From NCBI GenBank assembly GCA_013378385.1, contig JACAFS010000014.1, positions 1 through 20,809 of the forward strand: DNA of 20,809 nt, in the 5' to 3' direction. Below, piece by piece: positions 514-15,985 of the stretch. A program made the position numbers and the translations under genes. Source of the DNA: Nitrososphaerota archaeon. GTDB lineage: Archaea > Thermoproteota > Nitrososphaeria > Nitrososphaerales > UBA57. How positions within the stretch are numbered: the stretch's first letter is position 1; every line of letters starts with the position of its first letter. The notes beneath the pieces are model-generated. The model ran no database searches, was not told the DNA's origin, and was given only the letters and a program-made list of their open reading frames with translations.

Positions 514-956
514 ATTTTGATTACCTTTTTTAAACCTGCATTAAGACCAGCTTTTGTATCTTTCTCACTGTCTCCAATAATTACGCTATTCTCCAAATCA
601 ATATTGTGTTCTTCAGCAGCTTTCAGTAATAATCCAGGTTCAGGTTTCCTACATTTGCATTTTTCTTCAGTTTTATGAGGACAAACATATACTCCTGATA
701 TCTCTATTCCTTGCCTCTTTAATGATTGAATTATGTGTTGATTAATTTCATTTACTTGTTCATGGCTGAGTATTCCTTTGTTTATTCCTGCTTGATTTGT
801 AACCATTATTACCAAATATCCCTCGTTTTGCAACATCAAGATTGCAGGAAAAATTGTTTCAATTAACTCAATTTGATTTATAGACGAGATGTATTCTCCA
901 TCTATTTGTTTAATTATTGTTCCATCTCTGTCAATAAATAAAGCTGGTGATTTCAT
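510..956 (-). CDS. gmhB: D-glycero-D-manno-heptose-1,7-bisphosphate phosphatase (HAD superfamily, HisB-N/GmhB type)
   Basis: 148 aa. It carries HAD motif I (FIDRDGTI), motif II (VTNQAG), the Zn-loop signature CPHxxxxxCxCRKPxPG and a late GDSxxD. By eye it aligns along its full length with E. coli GmhB. Its ATG overlaps the gmhA stop (ATGA). Confidence 0.8.
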   Translation of the reverse strand: MKSPALFIDRDGTIIKQIDGEYISSINQIELIETIFPAILMLQNEGYLVIMVTNQAGINKGILSHEQVNEINQHIIQSLKRQGIEISGVYVCPHKTEEKCKCRKPEPGLLLKAAEEHNIDLENSVIIGDSEKDTKAGLNAGLKKVIKI

Positions 957-1501
957 CCTCGTAATATTTCTGTTATATAATGTAATAAAACTGAGTGAAC
1001 ACCTTCAATCAGCAATATGTTATCTGAAGGAACTTTGATAACTAAATCTGATAATTCTTCCAATTTACCTGCATTACCCGTTAATCCAATTGTTTTTATT
1101 CCTCTTCTCTTAGATTCTTCTACCGCTTTTATTACATTTGTTGAATTACCACTACAACTTATAGCTATCAGAATATCGCCTTTCTCTACAAAGTTCTTCA
1201 ATTGTTCTGAAAATATATCATCATATGAGACATCATTTGACCATGCAGTCATCACCGCTGTATTATCTGATAAACATTGAGCTCTAAATCTCGGTTGACT
1301 GTTATTAATTGAAGTTTTTAGCAGGTCACAAACAAAATGTGAAGCTGTAGAAGAACTCCCACCATTTCCGATCACAAAAACATTATTCTTATTGTTTCTA
1401 ACTTCTTGTAAAAGATTAATCATTTCTGAAATCTTGTCGTTATTCTCTATAAGATCGTCTATTGCATTCTTTGACTCTTGTAAAAATTTCTCATTTTCCA
1501 T
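953..1501 (-). CDS. gmhA: Phosphoheptose (sedoheptulose-7-phosphate) isomerase, SIS domain
   Basis: 182 aa. Motifs GNGGSSSTASHF and ISCSGNSTNVIKAV...GIKTIGLTG match E. coli GmhA (GNGGSHCDAMHF, ISTSGNSANVIKAI) by eye. It overlaps hddA by 11 nt. Confidence 0.8.
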   Translation of the reverse strand: MENEKFLQESKNAIDDLIENNDKISEMINLLQEVRNNKNNVFVIGNGGSSSTASHFVCDLLKTSINNSQPRFRAQCLSDNTAVMTAWSNDVSYDDIFSEQLKNFVEKGDILIAISCSGNSTNVIKAVEESKRRGIKTIGLTGNAGKLEELSDLVIKVPSDNILLIEGVHSVLLHYITEILRG

Positions 1502-2489
1502 AATTTACAACCGCTCCTCTTACTGATACATCAAATAAAACTTTCTTGCATCCAACACCGTGTAGATTTTTTGTAATATTCTTATGATGAGACTTTTCTG
1601 CAATTACCAAAAAATGACCTCCTCCTCCTGCACCCGTAATCTTTGCTCCATACGCTCCTGAATCTATTGCAATGTCATGCACTTTGTCAATAAATCTGTT
1701 GGATACACCTTTTGTAAATTTCTTTTTCAATTCCCAAGCAATTTCTAATGTGTTTCCTACATCTTTAAAGTTTCCATAATCTAAATCTTTTTTCATATCT
1801 CTTGTTAATTTATTCATTGTCTTTAATACATCAATCATCTCACTTGAATTATTCTGAACTCTTTTTTCTTGCCTTCTTAATATTTTATCTGCATCCCTTG
1901 TAGTTCCTAAATAAAAAAGTAAACAATTTTCTGTTAAAGTATTTGATATTTTCTTTTTAAAGGGCGTTACAATTATTTTATTCTTTTTATATTCTATATA
2001 ATTAAATCCACCAAATGCTGCTGGCATGTGATCTTGTTTACCTATTGCTTTCTTGAATATGTCAGCTTCTAATTTATACGCTCTTTCTGAAAGTTCCAAA
2101 GGATCTATTTTTTTCTTGTTACTTACATGATGAAATACATTTACTAAATTTACTGCCAATGTTCCTGATGAACCTAACCCACTTCCCGGTTGAACATCGC
2201 TTTTTATTGTAATCTTTGATGGAATTCCTTTTTCAAGTATTGTATATAGAGGCATTGAATTATTTTTTACTTTTATTAATTCTTCTTTTGTGCCATTATA
2301 ATATTCGTTTACATCACTGGCATTTACTATAAATTTATTTTTTAATTTTCTTAATTTAATTTTTGAGTATCTTGTTATTGCAAAATTTATTACTGCTCCA
2401 TTATGTTGTTTATAGAATGACGGAAAATCAGTTCCGCCACCACATATGCTTATTCTATGGGGGGCAATAGCCGTTAATTTATTATACAT
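1491..2489 (-). CDS. hddA: GHMP-family sugar kinase, most likely D-glycero-D-manno-heptose-7-phosphate kinase
   Basis: 332 aa. It has N-terminal RISICGGGTDFPSFY, the GHMP phosphate loop PGSGLGSSG and C-terminal KITGAGGGGH. It is the first gene of the operon with gmhA and gmhB. A GGAG lies 8 nt upstream of the ATG. Confidence 0.65.
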   Translation of the reverse strand: MYNKLTAIAPHRISICGGGTDFPSFYKQHNGAVINFAITRYSKIKLRKLKNKFIVNASDVNEYYNGTKEELIKVKNNSMPLYTILEKGIPSKITIKSDVQPGSGLGSSGTLAVNLVNVFHHVSNKKKIDPLELSERAYKLEADIFKKAIGKQDHMPAAFGGFNYIEYKKNKIIVTPFKKKISNTLTENCLLFYLGTTRDADKILRRQEKRVQNNSSEMIDVLKTMNKLTRDMKKDLDYGNFKDVGNTLEIAWELKKKFTKGVSNRFIDKVHDIAIDSGAYGAKITGAGGGGHFLVIAEKSHHKNITKNLHGVGCKKVLFDVSVRGAVVNYGK

Positions 2490-2580: not shown

Positions 2581-3663
2581 GTGGATATCCAAATATTTGA
2601 ATACCTTAATAATCAGCTAAAAGACGAACGTAAATTATTTTTATTAATTTTTGGTTTTAACTTACTTTTCTTCATATCTGGGTTAGCTTTAGGTTATGAC
2701 GTACATCATTTTGCAGATAAAGCAGATACTGATGGAACCTCTTATTATAATATTGCACTTGATCCTTTTTCATCATCTCCAGAAGAAAGTGGTTTTCGTC
2801 ATGCTACATTTCTCTACCCTCTAATTACATATCTTATTGCACAGGGAAATCCATTTGCTACTGCTTTGACTATGGAGATGATTAATATCACTGCATTCTC
2901 TTTTAGCGTTGTCATGTTCTCTAGAGTTGTTTCTTTAGATAATGCTCGTTCTTCAGTATTGTTCTATGCATTTAATCCAATTCTTCTTATCTCCACTCAT
3001 GGCGGAATGAACGAACCTTTGTTTTTTACATTTATGTTCGGCGCATTGTATTATTTTCGAACTGATAACTTCAAAATGTCTGCAATATTTTTAGCGTTTG
3101 CTTCGTTAGCACGTCCAGATTTTGTTATTTTCTCGTTTCCTTTCTTTTTACTCGCAAAAGATCGAAAGTTTCTTCCATATTTCTTAATTCCACTTATTAC
3201 TATCTCTTTACATGGTGTACATCTTATCTATCGATTTGGTCTGGACCATTTCTTAAGATTTACATCAGGAGTCGATTCAGGTTTTCCACATAGTATGATT
3301 GGAATTCCTTTCCAAACATTCTTTCAAAATCGTTTCTTCGGAGGAGTTAACACTCCTGCGATTACAGGTCTAAATTATTACATCAATGAGTTCCTAACTT
3401 GGTCAATTTTCTTTGCCTTAATTCTATCTATTTATTTTATCTATAAGAAAAAACACATTGATTATTTTAGTTTGTCATTAATTGTGTTCGGATCTGTTTT
3501 ACAACCAGCATATTCATTCTTTTCTGGATTTTTCCGTTTTGCATCAATGGTTCCTTATCTGTATAAAATTCCTGGATTAACTCTAAACAACAAAATGCTT
3601 TCTTTATTTGGATTCCTATATCTTATCTTTGGCATTTCTCTTTTATTCGCTTGGTTCTTTTAG
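2581..3663 (+). CDS. Polytopic integral membrane protein; candidate GT-C-type glycosyltransferase or Wzy/EpsG-like polymerase
   Basis: 360 aa with about 9-10 hydrophobic segments rich in Phe, Leu and Ile. An acidic loop follows directly after TM1 (DVHHFADKADTDGTSYYNIALDPF), as in the first extracytoplasmic loop of GT-C enzymes. The first internal Met lies well past TM1, so a GTG start is required. The gene is co-oriented with the surface-protein gene and sits directly upstream of it. Confidence 0.4.
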   Translation: MDIQIFEYLNNQLKDERKLFLLIFGFNLLFFISGLALGYDVHHFADKADTDGTSYYNIALDPFSSSPEESGFRHATFLYPLITYLIAQGNPFATALTMEMINITAFSFSVVMFSRVVSLDNARSSVLFYAFNPILLISTHGGMNEPLFFTFMFGALYYFRTDNFKMSAIFLAFASLARPDFVIFSFPFFLLAKDRKFLPYFLIPLITISLHGVHLIYRFGLDHFLRFTSGVDSGFPHSMIGIPFQTFFQNRFFGGVNTPAITGLNYYINEFLTWSIFFALILSIYFIYKKKHIDYFSLSLIVFGSVLQPAYSFFSGFFRFASMVPYLYKIPGLTLNNKMLSLFGFLYLIFGISLLFAWFF

Positions 3664-3807
3664 ATTTCATCATTACTTTACCGGATACAGCTCTAATAAT
3701 ATTGTCCATAATGTTTTTCTGCTATTTTTGTCAAATGACTTTATAATTGACCGTTAACCTGAATTTCTCTTCATTTTCCGCCGCAATAGACAATTTATCC
3801 ATAATCC

Positions 3808-3820
3808 TTATATATTAAAA
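3808..3820 (+). promoter_or_regulatory. Candidate TATA box (TTATATATTAAAA) for the S-layer gene; AAGGAG lies at 3837..3842, 9 nt before the ATG
   Basis: This is the strongest TATA-like element in the 188-nt upstream spacer. It predicts a TSS near 3838-3842 and a very short leader. A second candidate (CTTTATAATT, 3739..3748) would give a leader of about 80 nt that contains the Shine-Dalgarno-like AAGGAG. I cannot choose between them from sequence. Confidence 0.35.
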
Positions 3821-3851
3821 CTAGGAAAAACCGTTTAAGGAGTATAATAGT

Positions 3852-3980
3852 ATGAACTATAGTCTAAACACAAATTGGCTATTCTCGAAGCAATTCAAGG
3901 CTGCAACTGCAACCTTGTTATTAGCTGCTAGTATGCTTGTCATTATGGGCTTACCAATAGCTCCAAATGTACAGGCCGCT
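3852..3980 (+). other. Predicted Sec signal peptide of the S-layer protein (residues 1-43)
   Basis: MNYSLNTNWLFSKQFK (n-region, 2 Lys), AATATLLLAASMLVIMGLPIA (h-region), PNVQA|AN (small residues at -1 and -3). Confidence 0.6.
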
Positions 3981-6900
3981 AACACTGGAACTCTCACACT
4001 ATCATCTTCGCAAATCTTTGGAAATCAATCAGTCTCCATGACTATCTCTGATTCAGATATCGGAGTTCAGGAAATGAAGGCTACATACAATCCAAGTGTT
4101 GTCCTACAATGGACAAACACTTCAGGTACATACAGCATCAACGTTACACAGAACACCGGAGGAACATGGGTTGCATATGCAACTGATGCACTTTGGGTAA
4201 GCTATTCATCATCATGTCTAGCTCTTAACGTTACTGCAAGTGATAAGTCGCACAATGCGTCTCACACAGTCTACCATGCAGGACACGCACCAGCTGGCCA
4301 AGGTTCTAACGGACTTGCAACCGGTTCATGTGCAACTGCATACATTAACACTGGACACTTATCAAACGGCGTACCATCAACACGTACTTACACAAACCAT
4401 ACATATCGCGGTGGATCACAATCGAAGTTATCAACAACACACAGTATAGCTTCATCACCAATGATACATGGTATGAATATGACCCGTGGTCACACAATGA
4501 CAATCACGTACAAAGATGCATCTGATTCAACAGGCGCAGCGAAAGATGTTTCACAGACATTAAAGTACCAGGAGACAAAAGCCACAGTTTATAATACGGA
4601 GTCAAAACAGACTACCGTAACCCCAGGAGCTACCCTTAGGTTGTTCCTAAACCATAACGATCTTAATCAAGATCCAACAGAAACTGAAAGTTTCTTAGTT
4701 ACAAACAATACAAATGGATTTAAAGCAACAGTAGTCACTTCATCGAACACTACATTACAGAACCTCGTTAACAAAACAATGAGCTATTATGGCTCAGGTA
4801 ACCGTTTAACAGGTGGAACTGGAACTGCAGAATTTAGATTGAACTTTACAGAAACCGGTCCTAACACTGGTATCTTCAAATGTTCAAACACTGTAACTAC
4901 ATCGCCATGTCTTGAGATGGAAAGATTCTATTTCAACAACACCGGTACAGGTGACACTAACGTGAACACAAACAAGTCACACGCTGGTCATCCACAAGGT
5001 GCATGGGACTCACGTCCAATATGGAACTTTACATCAGACAACACTGGTACTTCCGGATGGAAGAACGGTGACACATTCAAGATAGCTTTCACACCAATTC
5101 AGGATATCCGATATGGTTACAATTCAACTACATGTAAAGCAGACAGTGGAGTTAGAGCTTCATGTTACAATTCAACATCTGTAACATTTACTATAACAGA
5201 AACCGCTGGAACAATGACAACGTCATCTAGTTCTCTGACAAGTGCAACTGATGTAACAGTAACAATTACTGATGCAGATATGAACCACGATCCAGAGAAA
5301 GTTGATACATTAACTAGAGTGTATGCTGAAATTAACAACAGTAGTCCGGTAACAGTAACGGCTAAAGAAAACGCTGTGAACAGCAGTGTCTTCACCTTTA
5401 CAATTCGATCTACTATTGGTGCGTATACATCTGGTTGTAGCTTTAGTGCAGCAGCTGCGCGATTAACTTGTACTCAATCCCCACAAGACGCAAAGGGTAA
5501 TGAGTTCGACGTCAAATATGACGACGGATATGCAAGTTCAATAGCAACAGCAACTGTAACAATGACTACATCTTTGGCAACTATCAGTACTGATAAGGAC
5601 AGTTATGATGAAACTGCATCAGCAATTTCATTCGTATACACTGATGCAGACGCTAACGATGGAGCAACTAAAGAACAAGTATTGTTCAATTCTACACGAC
5701 AGAAACACTACTCATCTAGAGAAGGTACGACAGCCGGTGATAAGACCTGTTCAGGTATATTCGTTGGAAGTACATGTAATGCAAAGAGGTTAGCTAACTT
5801 CACAATTACATCTATCAACGGAACGAACGGTTACACCGATATACGTAACTACTCTGCATTAGTACTAGAATCCACAACAACTTCGGGTTCATGGACTTTG
5901 TCGGTTACACTCGCTACATTGCGAACTGGAACTGATGGTGGTAGAGGAAAATCTGGTAGTACGCTTGGACTTGCAGCAGGAGATAAATTAGTCTTCTCAG
6001 TAAGAGACCACTTTGACTCAGCAACTGTCAATAAAACAGTAACAATTGGCGGAACAGTAGGATCATTATCATTTGATCGTACAGACTTCCCAATTACTGT
6101 CGGTGGCCATGCAACATCACCAGTTTCCCGAAATATGTCACGTGTAAATTCCACAGTTACATTAACAGACGTTGATAAGAACACCAACGCCAATGCAAGA
6201 GACAACGCAACATTACGTATGCTTGTCAAGAATGCAACAGGCGGAGTTGTTGGAACCACATCTGGAGGTAATAACATTCTAGCAGGAATGGGTGCTATGG
6301 GACATCTCTCATGGTATAATGTTACCGCTCTAGAAACAGGAGTCAACACAGGTATCTTCGAACTCAAGTTTGGAATTAACTGGGGTGCATCCAATACGGA
6401 CTTCCCAACAGTATTGAATTACTCATCACCAACACAAGAATATCATACCCTTGATCGTATGCAAGATATGGTCGGAGGACAGGTATGCTTCGAATGGGCT
6501 GATGGCGCTTCAAGTACTAATATAACAGTAGCAAATAGTGCACCAGGTACTATCACTGGCAACAGTGCAGTAAAAGGTGTAGCAAAATGTCTTGACATCA
6601 AGGCACACGATGCAACTATTACATCTACACTTAGTACAGGTAAGCTAGGCGATTCATTCACTGTAACAGCAACTGAAGCTGACTTTAACAGAGATACTGG
6701 AGTGAAAGATACACTCTACATGCTGATGATCGGTACTGCAAAGCAAGCCGCACCAGCAGAAACAGACACTGCAAAGTACAACTCTACAATTGCTCTTACA
6801 GAAACTGGAGTCAATACGGGTGAATTCACAAAGACTATCACATTAGAACCTGGTAAATCACCATTTGGTACAACCTTAACGGCTAACCAACACATCAGAC

Positions 6901-8051
6901 TACGTATAAGAGACAATGCAACATCCAACAGCTTCTATTCAGGAGCAGGATTAGCACGATCCTCTTCAACAGCAGCTCTAACTATCCAAAGTACAACAGC
7001 TACAATGGAGATTAGTCCTACTACAGAAGTCGGTCCTGATGGTAAGATCTATGTGAAACTCGTTGATCCTGACTTAATGACAACTGCAGCCAGCAGTGTA
7101 CAACTAACACAGGTTACATCCAACGGTACAGGCGATATTGAAAAACCATACGCCTCCAATGGAACAACCTCTACAGGTACATACTGGTTCGGTATCACAA
7201 TGGCCAGATCAACCGGAACACCAACTGACGAAGATGGAACACTTCATGTCAACGCATCTGACGTAATATACTTCTATTATTCAGATACAGCTGATGTAAG
7301 TGGAACCTTACAAGTCGTTAAAGCATCCTTGACTGTTAAGACAGAATCTGGTGCAATAACAACTGACAAGGCAAACTATCTAGTAGGTGACTTCGCAGAA
7401 ATCACTGTCGTAGATCTTGATGCAAATACTAATCCAGATACCAAACAATCAATTACCGTAAAGGTAGTTACAGATAGTTGGGAAATTGGAACCAGTATAA
7501 CACTACAAGAAACTGCAGCAGACTCTAACACCTTTACAGGTAAGATTGAATTCATTGCTACAACAAAGGGTGTACCTTCAAGTTCACAGGTATCCGCAAC
7601 TGTTGGTGACGTAGTCACCATCAAGTACACAGATACTTTATGTGATGACAACGCGAAGTGTACAATCGAATTAGCAACGAAGATCGGTCAAGCACTGTCA
7701 AAGACTGAACAAGTTCCAGCAGGAACCCCTGAGATCGTCGATACAGCAGGTAATGCATTCGCATCTCCAAGCGTTGGAGATATCGTAATCGTACAGGCTA
7801 GTGTCACAAACGATGATGACGTAGCACACACAGTAACCTTCTTGGTACAAATCAAGAATGCTGGTGGTGAAGTTATCAACCTCGGTTGGGTAAGAGATAT
7901 CGAACTGGCAACAGACGAATCTCAGACACCAGGACTATCCTGGCTACCTGATTCTGCAGGAACATACACAGCAGAAGTCTACGTATGGACAAGCATAAGT
8001 GAAGCAGAAGCTCTCTCACCAGTGAAGAGCGTAACCTTCACAATCGCATAG
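3852..8051 (+). CDS. Large secreted surface (S-layer) glycoprotein made of repeated Ig-like/beta-sandwich modules; no membrane anchor
   Basis: 1399 aa. It has a Sec-type signal (K-containing n-region, hydrophobic AATATLLLAASMLVIMGLPIA, VQA/AN cleavage-like site). It is very rich in Thr, Ser, Asn, Gly and Ala and is acidic. I counted about 36 N-X-S/T sequons by eye. About eight modules each carry a DxDxN(x)D-type motif followed by an ETGxNTGxF-type motif. Fourteen Cys fall into seven short-range pairs. The C-terminus (…VKSVTFTIA) has no hydrophobic segment. The long antisense ORFs inside it reflect codon bias. Confidence 0.7.
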   Translation: MNYSLNTNWLFSKQFKAATATLLLAASMLVIMGLPIAPNVQAANTGTLTLSSSQIFGNQSVSMTISDSDIGVQEMKATYNPSVVLQWTNTSGTYSINVTQNTGGTWVAYATDALWVSYSSSCLALNVTASDKSHNASHTVYHAGHAPAGQGSNGLATGSCATAYINTGHLSNGVPSTRTYTNHTYRGGSQSKLSTTHSIASSPMIHGMNMTRGHTMTITYKDASDSTGAAKDVSQTLKYQETKATVYNTESKQTTVTPGATLRLFLNHNDLNQDPTETESFLVTNNTNGFKATVVTSSNTTLQNLVNKTMSYYGSGNRLTGGTGTAEFRLNFTETGPNTGIFKCSNTVTTSPCLEMERFYFNNTGTGDTNVNTNKSHAGHPQGAWDSRPIWNFTSDNTGTSGWKNGDTFKIAFTPIQDIRYGYNSTTCKADSGVRASCYNSTSVTFTITETAGTMTTSSSSLTSATDVTVTITDADMNHDPEKVDTLTRVYAEINNSSPVTVTAKENAVNSSVFTFTIRSTIGAYTSGCSFSAAAARLTCTQSPQDAKGNEFDVKYDDGYASSIATATVTMTTSLATISTDKDSYDETASAISFVYTDADANDGATKEQVLFNSTRQKHYSSREGTTAGDKTCSGIFVGSTCNAKRLANFTITSINGTNGYTDIRNYSALVLESTTTSGSWTLSVTLATLRTGTDGGRGKSGSTLGLAAGDKLVFSVRDHFDSATVNKTVTIGGTVGSLSFDRTDFPITVGGHATSPVSRNMSRVNSTVTLTDVDKNTNANARDNATLRMLVKNATGGVVGTTSGGNNILAGMGAMGHLSWYNVTALETGVNTGIFELKFGINWGASNTDFPTVLNYSSPTQEYHTLDRMQDMVGGQVCFEWADGASSTNITVANSAPGTITGNSAVKGVAKCLDIKAHDATITSTLSTGKLGDSFTVTATEADFNRDTGVKDTLYMLMIGTAKQAAPAETDTAKYNSTIALTETGVNTGEFTKTITLEPGKSPFGTTLTANQHIRLRIRDNATSNSFYSGAGLARSSSTAALTIQSTTATMEISPTTEVGPDGKIYVKLVDPDLMTTAASSVQLTQVTSNGTGDIEKPYASNGTTSTGTYWFGITMARSTGTPTDEDGTLHVNASDVIYFYYSDTADVSGTLQVVKASLTVKTESGAITTDKANYLVGDFAEITVVDLDANTNPDTKQSITVKVVTDSWEIGTSITLQETAADSNTFTGKIEFIATTKGVPSSSQVSATVGDVVTIKYTDTLCDDNAKCTIELATKIGQALSKTEQVPAGTPEIVDTAGNAFASPSVGDIVIVQASVTNDDDVAHTVTFLVQIKNAGGEVINLGWVRDIELATDESQTPGLSWLPDSAGTYTAEVYVWTSISEAEALSPVKSVTFTIA
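4047..7540 (+). repeat. Protein-level tandem domain repeats (about 8) inside the S-layer gene; divergent at DNA level
   Basis: Acidic motifs by residue: SDSDIG (66), NHNDLNQDP (267), DADMNHDP (474, nt 5271), DADANDG (598), DVDKNTNANARDN (773), ADFNRDTG (943), DPDL (1072), DLDANTNPD (1188, nt 7413). Each is followed 30-70 residues later by a motif of the ETGPNTGIF type (nt 4851), then ENAVNSSVF, ESTTTSGSW, ETGVNTGIF (nt 6333), ETGVNTGEF (nt 6801), SNGTTSTGTYW and ETAADSNTF (nt 7509). Confidence 0.55.
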
Positions 8052-8103
8052 GAGAGGACAACATAAGTTGACCTCCCCCCTCTTATTTTTCCAGTCTGGA
8101 AAA

Positions 8104-9207
8104 ATGAACGTAGGACTAGCAGTAGTACTGTCAGCGTTATTGCTCGTTGCAGCAACTCCATTTGCTCTAGCACTTACAATTGCTGGTGACAAGGATGAAT
8201 ACAATCCTAGTGATCAGTTAACTGTCAGTGGTACAGCAGGACCAAATGCGGATATTACATTCAAGGTTTCAAACCCTAATGGTGCACAGGTTGCAGTAGG
8301 TCAAACTACTGCTGACTCAAATGGTGATTACTCAGTAACATTATTGAGATTCCCAAGTGCAGCAACAACTACATTCTCATTCGGAAGTTACACTGTAACT
8401 GCAACAGCAGACGAAGGAACAGCAGAATTAACTGTAACACTTACAGAAGCATCTGCAACTCCAAGTCAACCGGCAGCAAGTTCAGAGAGCGGAGGATTCG
8501 CAGTAGCTGTTACATCAGATGGAACATATAATTCTGGTGATACAGTCTCAATCTTCGTGCTAACAACTGACAACGGCGTCTTAGTCGATGCAACAGTATC
8601 TGTTGCTCGTGTACAGACTCCTAGCGGTTCAGAAAATGTACTAAGTACATGTTCTAAAGTTAGTACTGGATTACAAAAATGCTCATATAATGTAGCTGGT
8701 GGAGTAGGCACCTATGGTGTTCTAGTCCAAGCAAACTCAGATTTGGGTTCAGCAGCAGCAGTTGGAACATTCCAAGTTTCAGCAGGTGTCCAAATTGACA
8801 TCCCTGAAGCAGAAAGCAATGCTCCAATACTCAACGCAATCGCTAGCGTAGCACGCGATGTCGACGGTCTTTCCGACGATATCGATGGCGTTAACGATAA
8901 TGTTGGTGCTATTGATGTTGATGTACCACAAGGTGTGAGTTTAGCTCAAATCAGTAGTGCATTAGATGCAGCAGTTGCCGACGTGAAGTCAGCAGTCTCA
9001 GGCAGTCAATCAGCCATTGAAGAGGAAGTCGAAGAAACTGAAGACGATCTCGAAAATGCTATTGGCAGTATTGTTGAGAATGCAGACGCAGCAGCCGCAG
9101 GCTCTGCACAGGCAGCATCTACAGCTCTAATTGCAGCAGTCCTTGCAGCAATTGCAGTAATACTACAAGTAGTCGTAATCGTTAGAGGAAACGTCCTCAA
9201 AAACTAG
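8104..9207 (+). CDS. Type-I membrane-anchored surface protein: signal peptide, two beta-rich domains, acidic helical stalk, C-terminal TM helix; candidate S-layer anchor/stalk
   Basis: ATG 8104 gives MNVGLAVVLSALLLVAATPFALA, a classical signal peptide. The track's longer version starts at TTG 8068, which has GGAGAGG 10 nt upstream, so the start is ambiguous. Two Thr/Ser/Gly-rich modules follow (…TVSGTAGPNADITFKV…, …FAVAVTSDGTYNSGDTVSIFV…). Next comes an Asp/Ala/Val/Glu-rich low-complexity segment (DVDGLSDDIDGVNDNVGAIDVDV…EEEVEETEDDLENAIGSIVENADAAAAG). The TM helix is ALIAAVLAAIAVILQVVVIV, with a short basic tail RGNVLKN. I found no N-X-S/T sequons. Confidence 0.6.
   Translation: MNVGLAVVLSALLLVAATPFALALTIAGDKDEYNPSDQLTVSGTAGPNADITFKVSNPNGAQVAVGQTTADSNGDYSVTLLRFPSAATTTFSFGSYTVTATADEGTAELTVTLTEASATPSQPAASSESGGFAVAVTSDGTYNSGDTVSIFVLTTDNGVLVDATVSVARVQTPSGSENVLSTCSKVSTGLQKCSYNVAGGVGTYGVLVQANSDLGSAAAVGTFQVSAGVQIDIPEAESNAPILNAIASVARDVDGLSDDIDGVNDNVGAIDVDVPQGVSLAQISSALDAAVADVKSAVSGSQSAIEEEVEETEDDLENAIGSIVENADAAAAGSAQAASTALIAAVLAAIAVILQVVVIVRGNVLKN
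9124..9183 (+). other. C-terminal transmembrane helix of the 8104..9207 product
   Basis: Twenty consecutive hydrophobic residues, ALIAAVLAAIAVILQVVVIV, are followed by R-G-N-V-L-K-N-stop. This is positive-inside and implies N-out/C-in topology. Confidence 0.7.
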
Positions 9208-9213: not shown

Positions 9214-9248
9214 GTGGCGCGTTTACGCGCTCCATTTCTTTTTTTTTA
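9214..9248 (+). terminator. Hairpin plus oligo-T terminator after the surface-protein gene pair
   Basis: TGGCGCG-TTTA-CGCGCTCCA forms a GC-rich stem with one small bulge (9214..9234), which is striking in AT-rich DNA. TTTCTTTTTTTTT follows immediately (9235..9247). Oligo-T tracts are the established archaeal termination signal. Confidence 0.6.
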
Positions 9249-9401: not shown

Positions 9402-9911
9402 TTATCTTCCTTTTAATCCAAATCCTCTCATATTATATTTCTTTTCCATAAAATCATTTTTAGTCCAAAGTGATTTATGCGCTAGCGGTTCTATATCTGG
9501 ATCATTACACAAACTCTTCTTATGAGAATGTAGTGTAGTTGGAGCTGTTACTATATGATGTTTTGATATTCGTTCTAATTCATCCATCAAATGTCTCCCT
9601 TCTTCTTTATGTAAATGTGCTAATACTCCACTTGCTATTGCTATATCTACACTTTTATCCTCATGAGGCAATCTTTCTTTTCCAATATCGACGTTCTTAA
9701 TCTCTGTATAGGCATTTCCAAGTGATTTAGCATAGTCTAATGCTGGCTGATAGCAATCATAACCATATATCTTCAATTCTTTTTGCGGATGATCTAATTT
9801 TAATGCAAATCCTAATCTTCCGAATCCCATTCCTGCATCTACGATTGTACATGATTCTAGTTTACCAATCCATTTTGATAGATGGTGATTTACATATCTG
9901 TTCCATGGCAT
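9402..9911 (-). CDS. Class I SAM-dependent methyltransferase (small, single domain)
   Basis: 169 aa. Motif I is IVDAGMGFGRLG. An acidic residue ends beta-2 (YGYDC). The post-I and motif II region is VDIAIASGVLAHL. It is the last gene of the minus-strand sugar-modification operon, 8 nt after the C-methyltransferase. Confidence 0.65.
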   Translation of the reverse strand: MPWNRYVNHHLSKWIGKLESCTIVDAGMGFGRLGFALKLDHPQKELKIYGYDCYQPALDYAKSLGNAYTEIKNVDIGKERLPHEDKSVDIAIASGVLAHLHKEEGRHLMDELERISKHHIVTAPTTLHSHKKSLCNDPDIEPLAHKSLWTKNDFMEKKYNMRGFGLKGR

Positions 9912-9919
9912 GTTACAAA

Positions 9920-11131
9920 TTACTCCTTCAAAATAACCCTTAATTCTGGCATTGGTATTATGTAATTTAATTTCTGATATTTATCTTCAACTTTTTTTAT
10001 TATCTCATCAGAATAATTCCAAGCAAAAATCATCAAATAATCTGGTATTTCTTTTTCTAATATGTCTGGCGAAGTTATTGGAATATGACTTCCAGGCGTA
10101 AATAATCCTTGTTTTAGTGGCGAATCCTCAATAATTAATTCAATATTACTATTGTCTAAACCAATTGAATTAATCATTGTACTTGATTTTGCAGGTGCGC
10201 CATACCCAAAAATTCTTTTATTATCTTTTTTCAGTTTAACAAATAATTCTCTGATTTGTTCTATGTTGTTCTGCAATTTCTTATTAAAATTCTCTAGTGT
10301 CTGCAAATTGTCTATTCCATTTTCTTTTTCTTCCCTGATTAGATTATTGACACTTTGCTGTGGACTCTTTCCTTCAGATATGTAAGCACGTATTGAACCT
10401 CCATGTGTGGGAATCTTTTCAACATTATATACTGTCATGTTATGTTTGTCGAATAAATTAATCATTGAATGTATCGTATAATATAATACATGTTCATGGT
10501 ATATGTTGTCGAACGTCATATCTCTTATCATATCTGCAAAATACTGCACCTCAACAATATACGTTCCATTTTCTGATAACATTCTCTTGACATTTTCAAT
10601 AATGTCATGATATTCATCTAAATGAGCAAAAACATTTGATGCCACAACTATGTCTGCTTTTCCATTATCTGATATTATCTTGTTAACAGTATCTTTATCA
10701 AAATAAGAACAGATTGTTGCAAGTCCGTTATTATTTGCTTGTTCTGCTAAATTTCCTGCTGGTTCTACACCTATCGCTTTACATCCCAATTCTAATAGTG
10801 GCTTTAGTAAAACTCCGTCATTGGATCCTATATCTACTACTATTTTGGGATTGAATTCAGATTTTATCTTATCAGCTAACTCTGTGAAATGATTTCTTAG
10901 TCCTCCTGATATGGATGAAGCATAGGCATAATCCAGGAATAATTTGTCTCTTGGAATATAGCTCTCATCAGTCAACTGAACAAGTAAACAATTCCTGCAG
11001 CAAGTTACATCTAATGGATACAAAACCTCTTTGTCAAAATCACTTTCTTTAAGAAAAGCATTTGCTGGAGGCTGCCTGTTTAATGAAATAAACTCTAAAA
11101 ATTCTTCTTTATTGCATGACCTACATTTCAA
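9920..11131 (-). CDS. NDP-sugar C-methyltransferase family protein (Zn-ribbon N-domain, class I MTase, C-terminal C-methyltransferase domain; TylCIII-like architecture)
   Basis: 403 aa. It has an N-terminal CRSC…(about 38 residues)…CCRNC zinc-ribbon, then VVDIGSNDGVLLKPL (motif I) and DIVVASNVFAHL, then a C-terminal domain of about 150 aa. Size and layout match NDP-hexose C-methyltransferases. The start must be TTG 11131..11129 because the CxxC begins at codon 3. It overlaps the SDR stop (TTGA). Confidence 0.65.
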   Translation of the reverse strand: MKCRSCNKEEFLEFISLNRQPPANAFLKESDFDKEVLYPLDVTCCRNCLLVQLTDESYIPRDKLFLDYAYASSISGGLRNHFTELADKIKSEFNPKIVVDIGSNDGVLLKPLLELGCKAIGVEPAGNLAEQANNNGLATICSYFDKDTVNKIISDNGKADIVVASNVFAHLDEYHDIIENVKRMLSENGTYIVEVQYFADMIRDMTFDNIYHEHVLYYTIHSMINLFDKHNMTVYNVEKIPTHGGSIRAYISEGKSPQQSVNNLIREEKENGIDNLQTLENFNKKLQNNIEQIRELFVKLKKDNKRIFGYGAPAKSSTMINSIGLDNSNIELIIEDSPLKQGLFTPGSHIPITSPDILEKEIPDYLMIFAWNYSDEIIKKVEDKYQKLNYIIPMPELRVILKE

Positions 11132-11853
11132 ATTTCTGGCACCCTGATTATTGGTTCTTTGTCTTTTATAATTACAATATCTGAACCATTAGATACTTCT
11201 AAATTTCCAGATAATATTCTTGATATCACTTCATTTATTCTCGATGTATCTTGTTGATTCTCTGCATCTTCTTGCCCGAATACCATTGCTCTCATTCCTG
11301 TATTGACTCCTGCAGGAGAGATTGAAATACACTTTATTCCTGTGTCTTGTACTTCTTTTGCAACTGATTCAGTTAATCCTCTTACAGCAAATTTTGCTGC
11401 TGTATAAGCTGATAATTTTGGCACTGCTCTCCTTCCTGCTCTTGACGATATATTAATTATAGTTCCCGAATTGTTCTTTTTCATTATTGGTATTGTGTAT
11501 TTCATCATATTGAATGTAGGTAACAAGTTATCTCTTACAACTGAATTTAACATCTTTGAATCTATCTCTTCTACTAAAGCTAAATTATGCGCTACTCCGG
11601 CATTGTTAATTAAAATGTCTATCCTGTTCTCTTTTTGTAAAATGGTTTTTACATATTTCTCCACGTTTAGTTCATCGGCTAAATCTAATAATTCAAAATT
11701 ACATTCTTGTTTACTTTCAGTTGTTAATTCTCTCTCGTTTCTTGAAGATCCATAAACCCGTGCACCTTCTTTGACGAAATAATTTAATAATGAATACCCT
11801 ATTCCACTAGACGCACCAGTCAAAACAACTATCTTATTCTCAAATGCTTTCAT
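11128..11853 (-). CDS. Classical short-chain dehydrogenase/reductase (SDR), probable sugar ketoreductase
   Basis: 241 aa. Motifs: TGASSGIGYS (TGxxxGxG), NNAG, catalytic Ser (ISS) and YTAAK (YxxxK). ATGA overlap with the cupin gene. Confidence 0.75.
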   Translation of the reverse strand: MKAFENKIVVLTGASSGIGYSLLNYFVKEGARVYGSSRNERELTTESKQECNFELLDLADELNVEKYVKTILQKENRIDILINNAGVAHNLALVEEIDSKMLNSVVRDNLLPTFNMMKYTIPIMKKNNSGTIINISSRAGRRAVPKLSAYTAAKFAVRGLTESVAKEVQDTGIKCISISPAGVNTGMRAMVFGQEDAENQQDTSRINEVISRILSGNLEVSNGSDIVIIKDKEPIIRVPEI

Positions 11854-12221
11854 ATTATTTCATATGGTATTGTATCTTTATCATATTTACCCTTAAGTCG
11901 TTTTTCTGTTGTCATTGCTAAAAATACTGAACTCTCAAGAAACTTCATTGCGTGAGGAACTCCCGGTGCACTGTATACCATCTCTCCAGCTTTTACAATT
12001 GCCTTTTCTATCTTTCCACTCTTCCTCTCTTCATAATACTCCATCTTTCCTTTGATTATGTATGACCAATGAGAATCTCTCTTATGATAATGGTTTGCTC
12101 TTACTGCACCTTTCTTGGATGTTATGATCACAATGCTTGTAACTGGACTCTCTAAAATATTTGTGATCTTTCCTCTCTTGTCTATAAACGATTCTTTTAT
12201 CTTGATTACTTTTATTGCCAT
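11850..12221 (-). CDS. Small cupin-fold protein; candidate NDP-sugar isomerase/epimerase (FdtA/WxcM- or RmlC-related)
   Basis: About 123 aa from ATG 12221 (MAIKVIKIK…). The core VRANHYHKRDSHWSYIIKGKMEY…PGVPHAM shows the His-containing cupin motifs. The track's start at 12239 is a TTG. ATG 12221 forms a TAATG junction with the upstream gene and is preferred. Confidence 0.5.
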   Translation of the reverse strand: MAIKVIKIKESFIDKRGKITNILESPVTSIVIITSKKGAVRANHYHKRDSHWSYIIKGKMEYYEERKSGKIEKAIVKAGEMVYSAPGVPHAMKFLESSVFLAMTTEKRLKGKYDKDTIPYEII

Positions 12222-13132
12222 TATAAATTCTTCATCCAATTTACTGTTTTTTCTATACCTTCTTCAAATGATATCTTTGGCGTATATCCAAAATCTCTTC
12301 TTGCTTTTTCTATAGATAACGATAATCTCATTCCTTTCTCGCCTGACCTCCATGGCAAGTTCTTTATCTCTGACTTGCTATCTGTTTGTTTTATAACTAG
12401 ATCTGCTATGTCTTTTATCGAATAATCTTTACCGTATGCTATATTATAAACACCGTTGACTTCAGATTCTGCCATTGATATCATTGCATCAACTAGATTC
12501 TGTACATAATTAAAGTCTGTTGATTGACTACCGTCTCCCTCTATTGTAATTGAAGCATCTTCTAAAGCCTGTTTGATAAATATCGGTATTACCTGTTGTA
12601 ATCTAGAATTCGGACCAAATAACCCACTACTTCTAATTACTGTTATGGGCAATCCAAATGATTCAGCATAACTTTGACACATTAAATCAGCAGCAGCTTT
12701 CCCTGCACCATATGGATCTGTCGGTCTCAATACGTCGTCTTCTGACACTGATGAATTTTCTGCCTTTCCATATACATTCTTACTACTCATAAAAATTAAT
12801 TGTGTATTCTTCTTCGCTCGAATTAGTTCTAAAACATTTATCAAACCTGCGGTATTTGTATGAAAAGAATATTTAGGAGAAGAAAGAACTAGAGGAACAT
12901 CTGCCTGAGCTGCTAAAAATAATATGCAATCAATATCCGCAATATCTTTTTCATTCAAATCTTCTGCACTTTTCCAAATATAATTGATTGATTCCATTTT
13001 ATCTCCTATTCGATTTGCATAATGAGGTCCAATTATGTCTGATACAGAAACATCCGCTTGTTTTTCTAGTAACTCAGTAATTATATGCGACCCTAAGAAT
13101 CCAGAGCCACCTACTATTAGATAGTTCTTCAT
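12221..13132 (-). CDS. NAD-dependent nucleotide-sugar epimerase/dehydratase (extended SDR)
   Basis: 303 aa. Motifs: VGGSGFLGSHI (GxxGxxG), MSSKNVYG (catalytic Ser region), YGAGK (YxxxK). It is the first gene of the five-gene minus-strand operon. Confidence 0.75.
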   Translation of the reverse strand: MKNYLIVGGSGFLGSHIITELLEKQADVSVSDIIGPHYANRIGDKMESINYIWKSAEDLNEKDIADIDCILFLAAQADVPLVLSSPKYSFHTNTAGLINVLELIRAKKNTQLIFMSSKNVYGKAENSSVSEDDVLRPTDPYGAGKAAADLMCQSYAESFGLPITVIRSSGLFGPNSRLQQVIPIFIKQALEDASITIEGDGSQSTDFNYVQNLVDAMISMAESEVNGVYNIAYGKDYSIKDIADLVIKQTDSKSEIKNLPWRSGEKGMRLSLSIEKARRDFGYTPKISFEEGIEKTVNWMKNL

Positions 13133-13156
13133 TGAATACTTTGGAATTCCAATACA

Positions 13157-13164: not shown

Positions 13165-13187
13165 GAATCTTCATGAATTCTGTTTAT

Positions 13188-15927: not shown

Positions 15928-15949
15928 ACATATTCTGATGATACATTGA

Positions 15950-15957: not shown

Positions 15958-15985
15958 GATTATGAGAATATTATAGGGGTTAATA

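What the first reader, a model, noticed from the sequence alone, without database searches (positions are those of the whole stretch)
3852..9207. Two-gene S-layer module: an anchorless 1399-aa glycoprotein followed by a small C-terminally anchored stalk protein
Seen in sequence:
- The large protein has a signal peptide but no hydrophobic C-terminus, lipobox or sortase-type tripartite signal, so it needs a partner or another mechanism to stay on the cell.
- The next ORF lies 52 nt downstream on the same strand, and the only strong terminator (9214..9248) comes after this second gene.
- That ORF encodes a signal peptide, two beta-rich modules, an acidic Ala/Asp/Glu/Val-rich probably helical segment of about 100 aa, one TM helix and a short basic tail.
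- The two genes also share an elevated GC content and short-range Cys pairs.

Established knowledge: Sulfolobales S-layers are built from SlaA (about 1400 aa, outer lattice, no anchor) and SlaB (about 400-475 aa with a signal peptide, beta domains, a coiled-coil stalk and a C-terminal TM helix).

Inference: this AT-rich, probably thaumarchaeal locus encodes an analogous lattice-plus-stalk pair without obvious sequence similarity. To my knowledge thaumarchaeal S-layers are usually discussed as one large protein, but I cannot check whether such a partner has already been described.
Basis: partly seen in the sequence, partly recalled or inferred. Interest (0 to 1): 0.8.

Follow-up and report, generated by a model that had tools for sequence, protein, structure and literature searches.

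The report
Thaumarchaeal S-layer operon: SLP plus SlaB
These two genes encode the surface-lattice protein of a marine ammonia-oxidising archaeon and its membrane-anchored SlaB-type stalk partner, a pairing already published for this phylum in 2024, so the finding is correct but not new.

Summary
A 1399-aa secreted, sequon-rich, anchorless protein (3852..8051) is followed on the same strand by a small protein with a signal peptide, two beta-sandwich domains, an acidic coiled-coil-like segment, one C-terminal TM helix and a basic tail. The small gene most likely starts at TTG 8068, not ATG 8104, so the gap is 16 nt, not 52.

Both proteins belong to known families:
- **Large protein:** a homologue of the Nitrosopumilus maritimus S-layer protein NmSLP (PDB 8c8k: E 5.7e-23 alone, 1.4e-172 as a family profile). 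Its four best Foldseek matches are NmSLP structures.
- **Small protein:** It matches the NCBIfam SlaB model (E 1e-12) and published thaumarchaeal and crenarchaeal SlaBs (5e-9 to 3e-16). Its best PDB fold match is Sulfolobus SlaB.

The pair stays adjacent in all 22 related loci that include upstream DNA. Von Kügelgen et al. (Nature 2024) already reported an SLP plus a minor, TM-anchored SlaB homologue in most Nitrososphaerota (Nmar_1547/Nmar_1546).

Small additions from this work:
- conserved hairpins that sequester the slaB Shine-Dalgarno sequence and start codon;
- a shared SLP C-terminal domain in small secreted proteins;
- a weakly charged, sequon-rich SLP.

The parts
3797..3815 (+). Putative archaeal promoter of the operon: a BRE-like ATCCATAA followed by the TATA box TTATATAT.
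   Evidence: This is the block conserved upstream of the SLP gene in 6 loci whose surrounding sequence has otherwise diverged. The promoter role is inferred from position, 37-44 nt before the ATG.
3837..3843 (+). Shine-Dalgarno-like AAGGAGT, 8 nt upstream of the SLP start codon.
   Evidence: AGGAGT is invariant in the 6 aligned loci; the leading A is missing in L026. Sequence read.
3852..8051 (+). slp: an NmSLP-family S-layer protein of 1399 aa. It is secreted, all-beta, sequon-rich and has no membrane anchor.
   Evidence: - PDB 8c8k (NmSLP): E 5.7e-23 with the single sequence and 1.4e-172 with the family profile, which covers NmSLP residues 596-1734.
- AF2 model of residues 201-1399 is all-beta with mean pLDDT 72.9. 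Its four best Foldseek PDB hits are N. maritimus S-layer entries (8c8m_A, E 3.8e-34).
3852..3977 (+). SLP signal peptide, about residues 1-42, with predicted cleavage near VQA|AN.
   Evidence: It is the only hydrophobic 19-mer stretch in the protein. It resembles the NmSLP N-terminus, which ends ...AMA|AN. The cleavage site is inferred.
7254..8048 (+). Sequon-free, most conserved, most acidic C-terminal region of the SLP (residues 1135-1399). It is probably the cell-facing side. The last roughly 115 aa (7701..8048) form a terminal domain that aligns to the extreme C-terminus of NmSLP, inferred to correspond to its unresolved tenth domain.
   Evidence: - Identity to homologues rises towards the C-terminus: 90-95% here against 59-87% elsewhere in close relatives, and the same trend at every distance.
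- It has 0 sequons and net charges of -8, -6 and -10 in the last three 100-aa bins.
- It aligns to NmSLP residues 1488-1733.
- The terminal domain recurs in small secreted proteins.
8051..8078 (+). Hairpin H1. It pairs the SD sequence GGAGAGG (8051-8057, overlapping the last base of the slp stop codon) and the slaB start codon TTG (8068-8070) with CCTCC (8072-8078).
   Evidence: - Predicted fold of the junction (both hairpins, 8040-8110): -21.5 kcal/mol, z -4.2.
- H1 is predicted in every variant of the clade. The inner stem changes from CAAC/GUUG to GCAA/UUGC.
- The distant locus L025 uses a different sequence (GGUGCAUC/GAUGCAC) that also buries the SD sequence and the AUG.
- The function is inferred.
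8068..9207 (+). slaB: a SlaB-family stalk or anchor protein of 379 aa counted from TTG 8068.
- Signal peptide: 8068..8172
- D1: 8173..8448
- D2: 8494..8781
- Coiled-coil-like helices: 8821..9102
- TM helix: 9112..9183
- Basic tail: 9184..9204
   Evidence: - NCBIfam NF040788 SlaB: E 1.2e-12, and all 13 family members tested hit it.
- Family profile against published SlaB sequences: N. koreense 2.7e-16, Ignisphaera 4e-14, C. symbiosum 8e-14, M. sedula 8e-10, N. maritimus A9A4Y8 5e-9.
- AF2 model. The best Foldseek PDB hit is 8qox_B, S. acidocaldarius SlaB, E 3.8e-10.
- Heptad-like periodicity; TM helix.
8083..8107 (+). Hairpin H2, an AU-rich stem of 11-13 bp inside codons 6-14 of slaB.
   Evidence: - It is conserved in all loci of the clade.
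- Loop length varies from 3 to about 10 nt, always in multiples of three.
- L019 carries a compensatory CCAG/CUGG to CAAG/CUUG change.
- The role is unknown.
9216..9247 (+). Terminator-like element: the hairpin GGCGCG-TTTA-CGCGCT followed by a T-run.
   Evidence: Found. The GCGCG hairpin plus T8-10 follows slaB in 14 of the 15 related loci examined; L025 keeps only the T-run.

Best explanation
This is the slp-slaB S-layer operon of an uncultured marine member of the Nitrososphaerota (Thaumarchaeota). It is orthologous in kind to Nmar_1547/Nmar_1546 of Nitrosopumilus maritimus.

**Gene 1: the lattice protein**
- It encodes an NmSLP-type lattice protein, a secreted chain of tandem Ig-like beta-sandwich domains.
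- The N-terminal four fifths are variable and rich in N-glycosylation sequons, and probably face outward.
- The last roughly 265 residues are conserved, sequon-free and more acidic, and probably face the membrane.

**Gene 2: the stalk protein**
- It encodes a SlaB-type protein with two N-terminal beta-sandwich domains, about 95 residues of coiled-coil-like helix, one C-terminal TM helix and a short basic cytoplasmic tail.

**Proposed mechanism**
- SlaB oligomerises through its helical stalk and sits in the membrane by its C-terminus.
- It holds the underside of the SLP canopy with its N-terminal domains.

**Expression**
- The genes are transcribed from one promoter upstream of slp and terminated after slaB.
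- slaB translation is probably coupled to slp translation. Its SD sequence and TTG start codon are buried in a conserved hairpin that begins at the slp stop codon.
- A ribosome terminating on slp would open that hairpin. SlaB would then be made only alongside the SLP and probably in lower amounts.

**Shown versus inferred**
- Shown here: family membership of both proteins, their anatomy, the conserved adjacency, and the conserved junction elements.
- Inferred: the physical SLP-SlaB contact, the oligomeric state, co-transcription, and the coupling mechanism.
For: **Identity of the large protein**
- PDB 8c8k NmSLP: E 5.7e-23 with the single sequence and 1.4e-172 with the family profile over positions 370-1375.
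- The AF2 model is all-beta, and its four best Foldseek hits are N. maritimus S-layer entries.

**Identity of the small protein**
- NCBIfam SlaB model hit.
- Profile hits to published thaumarchaeal and crenarchaeal SlaB sequences.
- Best fold match is S. acidocaldarius SlaB, 8qox_B.
- Signal peptide, two beta domains, helical stalk with 3.5-3.65-residue periodicity, and a C-terminal TM helix.
- Of the 146 family representatives examined, 64 are 280-520 aa long and have both a hydrophobic N-terminus and a C-terminal TM helix.

**Linkage**
- In 22 of 22 related loci with upstream DNA, the slp gene ends 16-20 nt before slaB. This holds in loci whose flanking genes are rearranged.

**Operon signals**
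- Conserved BRE/TATA and SD elements lie upstream of slp only.
- GGAGAGG lies 10 nt before TTG 8068.
- A conserved terminator-like element follows slaB.

**Coupling element**
- Hairpins with z -3.6 to -5.4 in the 11 sequence variants of this clade that were folded, with register-shifted or compensatory changes. The distant locus L025 (z -2.4) has an equivalent SD/AUG-burying stem of different sequence.

**Orientation**
- Conservation and negative charge rise towards the SLP C-terminus, and sequons stop at residue 1134.
- This matches the published NmSLP topology, in which the ninth domain forms the membrane-proximal base and negative charge increases from N- to C-terminus (PMC11153153).

**Literature**
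- The same pairing is reported for most Nitrososphaerota.
Against: - No data here show that the two proteins touch.
- In N. maritimus, SlaB is reported to be far less abundant than NmSLP. The authors suggest that the tenth SLP domain may itself anchor the lattice, so SlaB may not be the main tether.
- The helical stalk and TM helix are modelled with low confidence, pLDDT below 50. The oligomeric state is unknown.
- Judging from non-consecutive accession numbers only, which is weak evidence, slp and slaB may not be adjacent in some Nitrososphaerota, for example Cenarchaeum symbiosum and Nitrosotalea devanaterra.
- Co-transcription and translational coupling rest on sequence signals alone. A T5-T6 tract inside the junction could also cause partial termination.
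- All loci surveyed for synteny are fairly close relatives: slaB is 55-99% identical in all but L025 (32%) and L004 (38% over residues 17-126), neither of which could be scored for synteny.
Confidence: 0.8

Rival explanations
1. The SLP lattice is tethered mainly through its own C-terminal domain, which binds some other envelope component. SlaB is then only a minor, sub-stoichiometric accessory, acting for example as a spacer, an assembly nucleator or a local reinforcement.
For: - Published proteomics show that N. maritimus SlaB is much less abundant than NmSLP, and the authors speculate that domain 10 anchors the lattice.
- The SLP terminal domain is the most conserved part of the protein.
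- That domain recurs at the C-terminus of at least 11 clusters of small secreted proteins with no TM helix, as a portable docking module would.
- The hairpin that buries the SD sequence suggests low slaB output.
Against: - The strict adjacency, the conserved junction and the conserved SlaB architecture argue that SlaB is functionally tied to the SLP.
- No ligand for the terminal domain is known.
- This rival is compatible with the main explanation and differs only in which tether dominates.
Confidence: 0.3
2. The small protein is an unrelated membrane-anchored surface protein, such as an adhesin or a sensor stalk. It lies next to the large gene only because both sit in a cell-surface gene island.
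For: - The window is a surface-glycan island containing heptose-pathway, methyltransferase, dehydratase and UDP-sugar dehydrogenase genes.
- Ig/MG-like domains are generic, and many unrelated PDB entries also match the model.
Against: - Sequence homology to named SlaB proteins from two archaeal phyla.
- The best fold match is SlaB itself, aligned over the full length.
- The 16-nt junction with its SD sequence and hairpins is conserved even where the flanks are rearranged.
Confidence: 0.05
3. The large protein is a giant adhesin or other non-lattice surface protein and not the S-layer subunit. The true SLP would then be encoded elsewhere in the genome.
For: - Some Nitrosopumilus genomes carry a second, less acidic SLP paralogue, "SlaA1", with a net charge of -63 to -70. 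The net charge here is only -36.
- The rest of this genome is not available, so a second paralogue cannot be excluded.
Against: - Homology to NmSLP extends over most of the length, and the best fold matches are NmSLP.
- This is the copy adjacent to slaB, as Nmar_1547 is in N. maritimus.
- SLPs of Nitrososphaera and Nitrosotalea listed as the main SLP have similarly modest charges of -39 to -77.
Confidence: 0.07

Closest known systems
[quoted passage not shown]
   Same: - Same phylum and the same two families.
- An anchorless lattice protein built of tandem Ig-like domains, with N-glycan sites on the outward part and negative charge rising towards the C-terminus.
- A small SlaB homologue with a signal peptide, two beta domains, a helical segment and a C-terminal TM helix, whose locus tag is consecutive with that of the SLP gene.
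   Different: - The SLP here is 335 aa shorter.
- With the single sequence, only the last roughly 245 aa align clearly to NmSLP.
- Net charge is about -36 against the published -212. There are 37 sequons against 17 observed glycans.
- The SlaB here is only remotely similar to Nmar_1546 (profile E 5e-9) and has a longer, more acidic stalk.
- No experimental data exist for this lineage.
Sulfolobales SlaA/SlaB two-component S-layer (S. acidocaldarius, PDB 7ZCX and 8QOX/8QP0)
   Same: - Two adjacent genes, with an anchorless lattice protein followed by SlaB.
- The SlaB architecture is shared and homologous: signal peptide, beta-sandwich domains, coiled coil and C-terminal TM helix.
   Different: - The lattice protein is not a SlaA homologue. 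There is no sequence hit, and no SlaA entry appears among the 50 best fold hits.
- The SlaB here has two beta domains where S. acidocaldarius has three, and no sequons where Sulfolobus SlaB is heavily glycosylated.
- Lattice symmetry is expected to be p6-like as in NmSLP, not p3. This was not tested.
Haloferax volcanii csg and other single-protein archaeal S-layers
   Same: A glycosylated lattice protein built of tandem Ig-like domains.
   Different: csg is a single-protein S-layer. From my own knowledge, not checked here, csg is tethered by its own lipid-modified C-terminus. The SLP here has no C-terminal hydrophobic or PGF-type signal and has a separate anchor-type partner.
Translational coupling by RNA unfolding, for example the phage f1 VII/IX, MS2 coat/lysis and rpmI-rplT gene pairs (review PMC12548453)
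   Same: The downstream ribosome-binding site and start codon are buried in a hairpin that a ribosome finishing the upstream ORF would open. The intergenic distance is short.
   Different: It has not been demonstrated here. The setting is archaeal, the start codon is TTG, and there is an extra conserved hairpin inside the first codons of the downstream gene.

Membership tests
NmSLP-type thaumarchaeal S-layer protein | Detectable sequence homology to NmSLP (Nmar_1547) | tested here: met
   - phmmer against the PDB: 8c8k E 5.7e-23, query residues 1154-1398 aligned to NmSLP 1488-1733.
- Family profile: E 1.4e-172, covering NmSLP residues 596-1734.
NmSLP-type thaumarchaeal S-layer protein | Secreted chain of tandem Ig-like beta-sandwich domains with no membrane anchor | tested here: met
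   - The AF2 model is all-beta, and its four best Foldseek hits are NmSLP structures.
- The only hydrophobic segment is N-terminal, with none at the C-terminus.
NmSLP-type thaumarchaeal S-layer protein | N-glycosylation on the outward-facing domains | tested here: inconclusive
   Sequons are enriched in residues 1-1134 (36 against 21.5±3.9, P 0.0005) and absent from 1135-1399. Actual glycosylation cannot be tested here.
NmSLP-type thaumarchaeal S-layer protein | Strongly negative net charge with an N-to-C gradient (the basis of the cation-sieve model) | tested here: inconclusive
   - A gradient is present, with the last three 100-aa bins at -8, -6 and -10.
- The total is only about -36, against the published -212 for NmSLP.
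- Other listed AOA SLPs range from -39 to -77, so high charge does not define the family.
NmSLP-type thaumarchaeal S-layer protein | Assembles into a pseudo-hexagonal lattice on cells | not testable with these tools
   Needs cryo-ET or EM of cells or envelopes.
SlaB (S-layer stalk/anchor protein) | Sequence homology to characterised or named SlaB proteins | tested here: met
   - NCBIfam NF040788: E 1.2e-12, with 13 of 13 family members hitting it. The score is far below the 700-bit equivalog cut-off, so this is a remote homologue and not an equivalog.
- Profile against published SlaBs: 5e-9 to 2.7e-16. S. acidocaldarius is marginal (0.03) and S. solfataricus is not significant.
SlaB (S-layer stalk/anchor protein) | Architecture: signal peptide, N-terminal beta-sandwich domains, coiled coil, single C-terminal TM helix | tested here: met
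   - AF2 secondary structure and domains.
- Hydrophobic 19-mers only at the two termini.
- Periodicity of 3.5-3.65 residues, with 0 of 500 shuffles reaching the observed power.
- The best Foldseek hit is 8qox_B, SlaB.
SlaB (S-layer stalk/anchor protein) | Encoded directly downstream of the lattice-protein gene | tested here: met
   The gap is 16 nt in the window. The same arrangement holds in 22 of 22 related loci with upstream DNA.
SlaB (S-layer stalk/anchor protein) | Forms a coiled-coil oligomer (a trimer in Sulfolobus) and binds the lattice protein | not testable with these tools
Needs AF-Multimer, pull-downs or subtomogram averaging.
Sulfolobales SlaA | Sequence or fold similarity of the large protein to SlaA | tested here: not met
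   No SlaA chain appears among the PDB sequence hits at E ≤ 1 or among the 50 best Foldseek hits. The large protein should not be filed as SlaA, although the 2024 paper uses "SlaA" as a label in its table.

The most novel reading that the evidence does not exclude
Three things found here are not in the papers I could read.

1. **Translational coupling.** slaB translation in this lineage may be hard-wired to slp translation. A conserved hairpin buries its SD sequence and start codon, and a second conserved hairpin lies inside its first codons. This would be an RNA-unfolding coupling device that fixes the anchor-to-lattice ratio. An S-P-containing N-terminus, the coding footprint of a CCUCC-type anti-SD stretch, persists in SlaB homologues at about 30% identity.

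2. **A portable docking domain.** The SLP's last domain may be a portable envelope-docking module. It is also carried by a family of small secreted proteins that combine it with SlaB-type N-terminal domains. That combination hints that this domain and the SlaB N-domain work together.

3. **A weakly charged SLP.** This pelagic clade has a weakly charged SLP (-36 to -52, and about neutral in the next relatives) with about three times more sequons than the acidic Nitrosopumilus type. It sits beside uronic-acid-type sugar genes. The negative surface charge proposed to trap ammonium may therefore be supplied by glycans instead of by the polypeptide.
Probability: 0.35. Interest if true: 0.45.

Novelty: new member of a known kind. 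Interest (0 to 1): 0.22.

Why it matters
- **What it adds.** It extends the published SLP-plus-SlaB envelope plan of ammonia-oxidising archaea to an uncultured marine lineage whose genes are unnamed or labelled hypothetical in public data. It also gives correct gene boundaries.
- **A testable control point.** The conserved junction hairpins offer a way to test how an archaeon sets the ratio of lattice to anchor.
- **A check on the ammonium-sieve model.** The weakly charged, sequon-rich SLP is a useful test case for how general the protein-charge-based ammonium-sieve model is.
- **Limits.** None of this overturns current understanding. The central claim of the finding is already in the literature.

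Tried and rejected
**Searches that found nothing useful**
- Pfam gave no family-level hit for either protein, only weak Ig/MG-type matches.
- The word-indexed protein search, with the single sequence and with a profile, did not reach Nitrosopumilus SlaB. I made the link by copying published SlaB sequences from the Nature 2024 supplement and scoring them with the family profile.
- Rfam had no credible match at the junction.
- The genome scan returned only 3 close loci.

- Foldseek against afdb50 was not available.
- A broad 21-sequence SlaB alignment was too diverse for the metagenome scan. A narrower alignment worked.
- The Nitrosopelagicus proteome paper (PMC4313803) is not held.

**Analyses replaced by a better method**
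- MAFFT misaligned the 3' arm of hairpin H2 between clades, so I folded each variant separately.

**Ideas rejected**
- ATG 8104 as the start codon.
- The shared high GC as a sign of common origin or horizontal transfer. It comes from amino-acid composition.
- Faster evolution of the S-layer genes than their flanks. Identities are similar, 82% and 73% against 78-92%.

Full report
**1. The observation**

The window has about 30-34% GC, rising to 40-45% over 3.8-9.2 kb. Two + strand ORFs fill that rise: 3852..8051 (1399 aa) and 8068..9207, which has an internal ATG at 8104.

The large protein:
- It has a single hydrophobic segment at the N-terminus and nothing hydrophobic at the C-terminus.
- It is 16% Thr and 10% Ser, with seven short-range Cys pairs and a net charge of about -36.
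- It has 37 N-X-S/T sequons. Residues 1-1134 hold 36, against 21.5±3.9 in shuffles (P 0.0005). Residues 1135-1399 hold none.

The small protein:
- It has hydrophobic segments only at its two ends, no sequons (3.6 expected, P 0.02) and a net charge of -32. Its one Cys pair is invariant in the homologue alignment.
- An AF2 model built with 29 homologues gives two beta-sandwich domains. D1 spans about residues 24-115 (pLDDT 84-92) and D2 about 131-226 (pLDDT 61-76).
- Long helices follow at 240-268 and 280-333, then a terminal TM helix.
- The helical part has hydrophobic periodicity of 3.5 to 3.65 residues, which none of 500 shuffles reaches.

A GC-rich hairpin followed by a T-run lies just after the second gene. 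So the description is accurate.

**2. Two corrections to the description**

*The start of the small gene.* TTG 8068 is the better start codon.
- Homologues at 55-60% identity have no Met at the position of ATG 8104 and begin at the upstream codon.
- Locus L021 has ATG exactly where the window has TTG.
- Length differences in this stretch are always multiples of three.
- GGAGAGG lies 10 nt upstream and overlaps the last base of the slp stop codon.
- The intergenic gap is therefore 16 nt.

*The shared GC excess.* It lies in codon positions 1 and 2 (GC2 about 50% against about 32% in the flanks). GC3 is only slightly raised. It reflects Thr/Ala/Ser/Gly-rich composition and says nothing about a relationship between the genes.

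**3. What the large protein is**

- A phmmer search of PDB sequences finds one entry, the N. maritimus S-layer protein NmSLP (8c8k). The E-value is 5.7e-23 over the last roughly 245 residues of both proteins.
- A profile of 17 homologues raises this to E 1.4e-172 and covers NmSLP residues 596-1734.
- An AF2 model of residues 201-1399 is all-beta (mean pLDDT 72.9). Its four best Foldseek PDB hits are N. maritimus S-layer entries (8c8m_A, E 3.8e-34). The next hits are generic macroglobulin-domain proteins, about 17 orders of magnitude weaker.
- No Sulfolobus SlaA appears in either search.
- Identity to relatives rises steadily towards the C-terminus at every evolutionary distance. Negative charge does the same.
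- This matches the published NmSLP topology, in which the C-terminal domains face the membrane.

**4. What the small protein is**

- The NCBIfam SlaB model (NF040788) matches residues 8-110 at E 1.2e-12. It also matches all 13 family members tested. The score is far below the equivalog cut-off, so this is a remote homologue.
- I copied published SlaB sequences from the supplement of von Kügelgen et al. 2024 and scored them with the family profile, using a search space of one million sequences:
  - Nitrosarchaeum koreense 2.7e-16
  - Ignisphaera aggregans 4e-14
  - Cenarchaeum symbiosum 8e-14
  - Metallosphaera sedula 8e-10
  - N. maritimus A9A4Y8 5e-9
  - S. acidocaldarius 0.03
- The best Foldseek PDB match of the model is 8qox_B, S. 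acidocaldarius SlaB in the SlaA-SlaB assembly (E 3.8e-10). The remaining hits are generic tandem Ig/MG domains.
- An exhaustive profile search finds 401 cluster representatives at E ≤ 1e-3. Of the 146 examined, 64 are 280-520 aa long and have both a hydrophobic N-terminus and a C-terminal TM helix.
- The small protein is therefore a SlaB-family member.

**5. Linkage and expression signals**

*Adjacency.*
- Three MAG loci (labelled Thaumarchaeota archaeon; UBA223 is filed under Nitrososphaerota), 21 metagenome loci and one further contig were fetched.
- In all 22 loci that include DNA upstream of slaB, the slp gene ends 16-20 nt before it.
- This includes loci whose flanking genes are deleted or rearranged.
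- These are all fairly close relatives, with slaB 55-99% identical.
- A distant SlaB homologue (P0070, locus L004) also has a gene end 16 nt upstream. Its last 50 residues weakly resemble the SLP C-terminus (pairwise E 1e-4).

*Promoter and terminator.*
- Upstream of slp, a conserved ATCCATAA-N3-TTATATA block and an AGGAGT sequence stand out from diverged surroundings.
- Downstream of slaB, a GCGCG hairpin plus T8-10 is conserved in 14 of the 15 related loci examined; the distant L025 keeps only the T-run.
- I infer one transcription unit from these signals.

**6. The junction**

The 60 nt from the slp stop codon into slaB are nearly invariant at the DNA level, even between loci whose proteins are only about 57-60% identical. 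Two hairpins are predicted, with z -4.2 in the window and -3.6 to -5.4 in the ten other clade variants folded.

*H1 (8051..8078).*
- It pairs the SD sequence and the start codon with a CCUCC stretch in codons 2-4.
- The inner stem differs between clades (CAAC/GUUG against GCAA/UUGC) but still pairs the start codon.
- The 32%-identical locus L025 has an unrelated 8-bp stem that also buries its GGUG and AUG.

*H2 (8083..8107).*
- It keeps its arms while its loop varies from 3 to about 10 nt.
- L019 carries a compensatory CCAG/CUGG to CAAG/CUUG change.

*Reading.*
- SlaB homologues at about 30% identity still begin with S-P-containing peptides such as SPLFF, the coding footprint of such a C-rich stretch.
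- My reading, as inference, is translational coupling by RNA unfolding, a mechanism reviewed in PMC12548453. A ribosome terminating on slp opens H1 and so licenses slaB initiation.
- That would tie SlaB synthesis to SLP synthesis and probably keep it lower. It would fit the published low abundance of SlaB in N. maritimus.
- The T5-T6 tract in H2 could also attenuate transcription. I cannot tell which applies.

**7. What is already known**

- Von Kügelgen et al. (Nature 2024, PMC11153153) state that the N. maritimus genome encodes a homologue of the cell-anchoring SlaB protein. They also state that most Nitrososphaerota encode a minor SlaB homologue whose C-terminal TM domain potentially anchors the canopy.
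- Their Supplementary Table 1 lists "SlaA"/"SlaB" pairs for over twenty species, many with consecutive accession numbers.
- PMC11559005 tabulates slp and slaB across AOA.
- A 2026 preprint names Nmar_1546 as the SlaB homologue, and by locus tag it neighbours Nmar_1547.
- The finding's central idea is therefore published. The window is a new, divergent instance in an uncultured lineage.
- The anchoring role itself remains a hypothesis in the literature. The Nature authors suggest that the tenth SLP domain may partly replace SlaB.

**8. Side observations**

*A family of small secreted proteins.*
- At least 11 clusters of secreted proteins (about 240 or about 335 aa, no TM helix) combine one or two SlaB-D1-like domains with a C-terminal domain homologous to the last roughly 115 residues of the SLP.
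- Examples are P0069 (43% identity to the SLP terminal domain), P0080, P0092, P0144 and P0166.
- This suggests that the SLP terminal domain is a portable module and that it works together with SlaB-type domains.

*SLP charge and sequons.*
- SLPs of this clade have net charges of -36 to -52 and 34-38 sequons.
- Relatives at 35% identity are about neutral, with 38-40 sequons.
- More distant relatives carry 8-13 sequons; the Nitrosopumilus-like P0067 has 13 and a charge of -189. The published value for NmSLP is -212.

*The surrounding genes.*
- The operon sits among sugar genes: GmhA-, GmhB- and HddA-like heptose genes, a sugar C-methyltransferase, NDP-sugar dehydratases, a UDP-glucose/GDP-mannose dehydrogenase, and a VimE-like deacetylase of a diacetamido-uronic acid.
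- Acidic glycans could therefore supply surface charge. This is speculation.

**9. Verdict**

- This is a new member of a known kind.
- Interest is low to modest. The junction hairpins, the shared terminal domain and the weakly charged SLP are the only parts worth following up.

Noticed in passing
window 8051-8107; the same place in L001-L003 and L005-L024; a different sequence with an equivalent stem in L025 83-120: Two conserved RNA hairpins lie at the slp-slaB junction. H1 buries the slaB Shine-Dalgarno sequence and start codon. H2 is an AU-rich stem inside codons 6-14 with a loop of variable length. DNA here is nearly invariant although the proteins are only about 57-60% identical.
   Followed up: partly
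proteins P0069, P0080, P0092, P0102, P0115, P0127, P0131, P0135, P0144, P0150, P0166; homologous to window 7701-8048 and 8173-8448: A family of small secreted proteins with no TM helix combines one or two SlaB-D1-like domains with a C-terminal domain homologous to the last domain of the SLP. This suggests that the domain is a portable envelope module.
   Followed up: partly
window 3852-8051 and homologues P0051-P0068: The SLP here is only weakly acidic (net -36; the clade ranges from -36 to -52, and relatives at 35% identity are about neutral). It has 34-40 sequons, whereas more distant relatives carry 8-13 (the Nitrosopumilus-like P0067 has 13, net -189); published NmSLP is -212 with 17 observed glycans. 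This bears on how general the protein-charge ammonium-sieve model is.
   Followed up: partly
window 510-2489 (- strand): Three consecutive genes resemble the nucleotide-activated heptose pathway: a GmhB-like phosphatase, a GmhA-like sedoheptulose-7-phosphate isomerase and an HddA-like heptose-7-phosphate kinase. All score below the equivalog cut-offs.
   Followed up: partly
window 2581-3663 (+ strand): The 360-aa ORF directly upstream of slp has no Pfam hit. It matches an NCBIfam "cell surface glycopolymer formation protein" domain (E 2.5e-21, below cut-off). At 92% identity to L001 it is the most conserved gene of the neighbourhood.
   Followed up: no
window 9402-13955 and 14608-20360: The rest of the window is a surface-glycan gene cluster:
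- two methyltransferases, including a sugar C-methyltransferase type
- an SDR, a cupin and two NDP-sugar dehydratase/epimerases
- a weak GT2
- a UDP-glucose/GDP-mannose dehydrogenase
- a nucleotidyltransferase
- a VimE-like deacetylase
- an ATP-grasp protein

Parts of the cluster are deleted or rearranged in L002 and L003.
   Followed up: partly
window 14190-14570 (- strand): A QueF-like (7-cyano-7-deazaguanine reductase family) gene sits inside the sugar cluster. The same placement is seen in L001, L003 and L026. It is an odd neighbour for glycan genes.
   Followed up: no
window 17869-17946 (- strand): A tRNA-Arg (anticodon GCG) abuts the end of the 16865-17869 dehydratase ORF, sharing position 17869 with it.
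   Followed up: no
L004 3-215 and 232-1539: A distant SlaB homologue (P0070) has a carboxypeptidase-regulatory-like second domain, as the Ignisphaera SlaB appears to. It is preceded, 16 nt upstream, by a gene end whose last 50 residues weakly resemble the SLP C-terminus (pairwise E 1e-4). This hints that the pairing extends well beyond this clade.
   Followed up: partly
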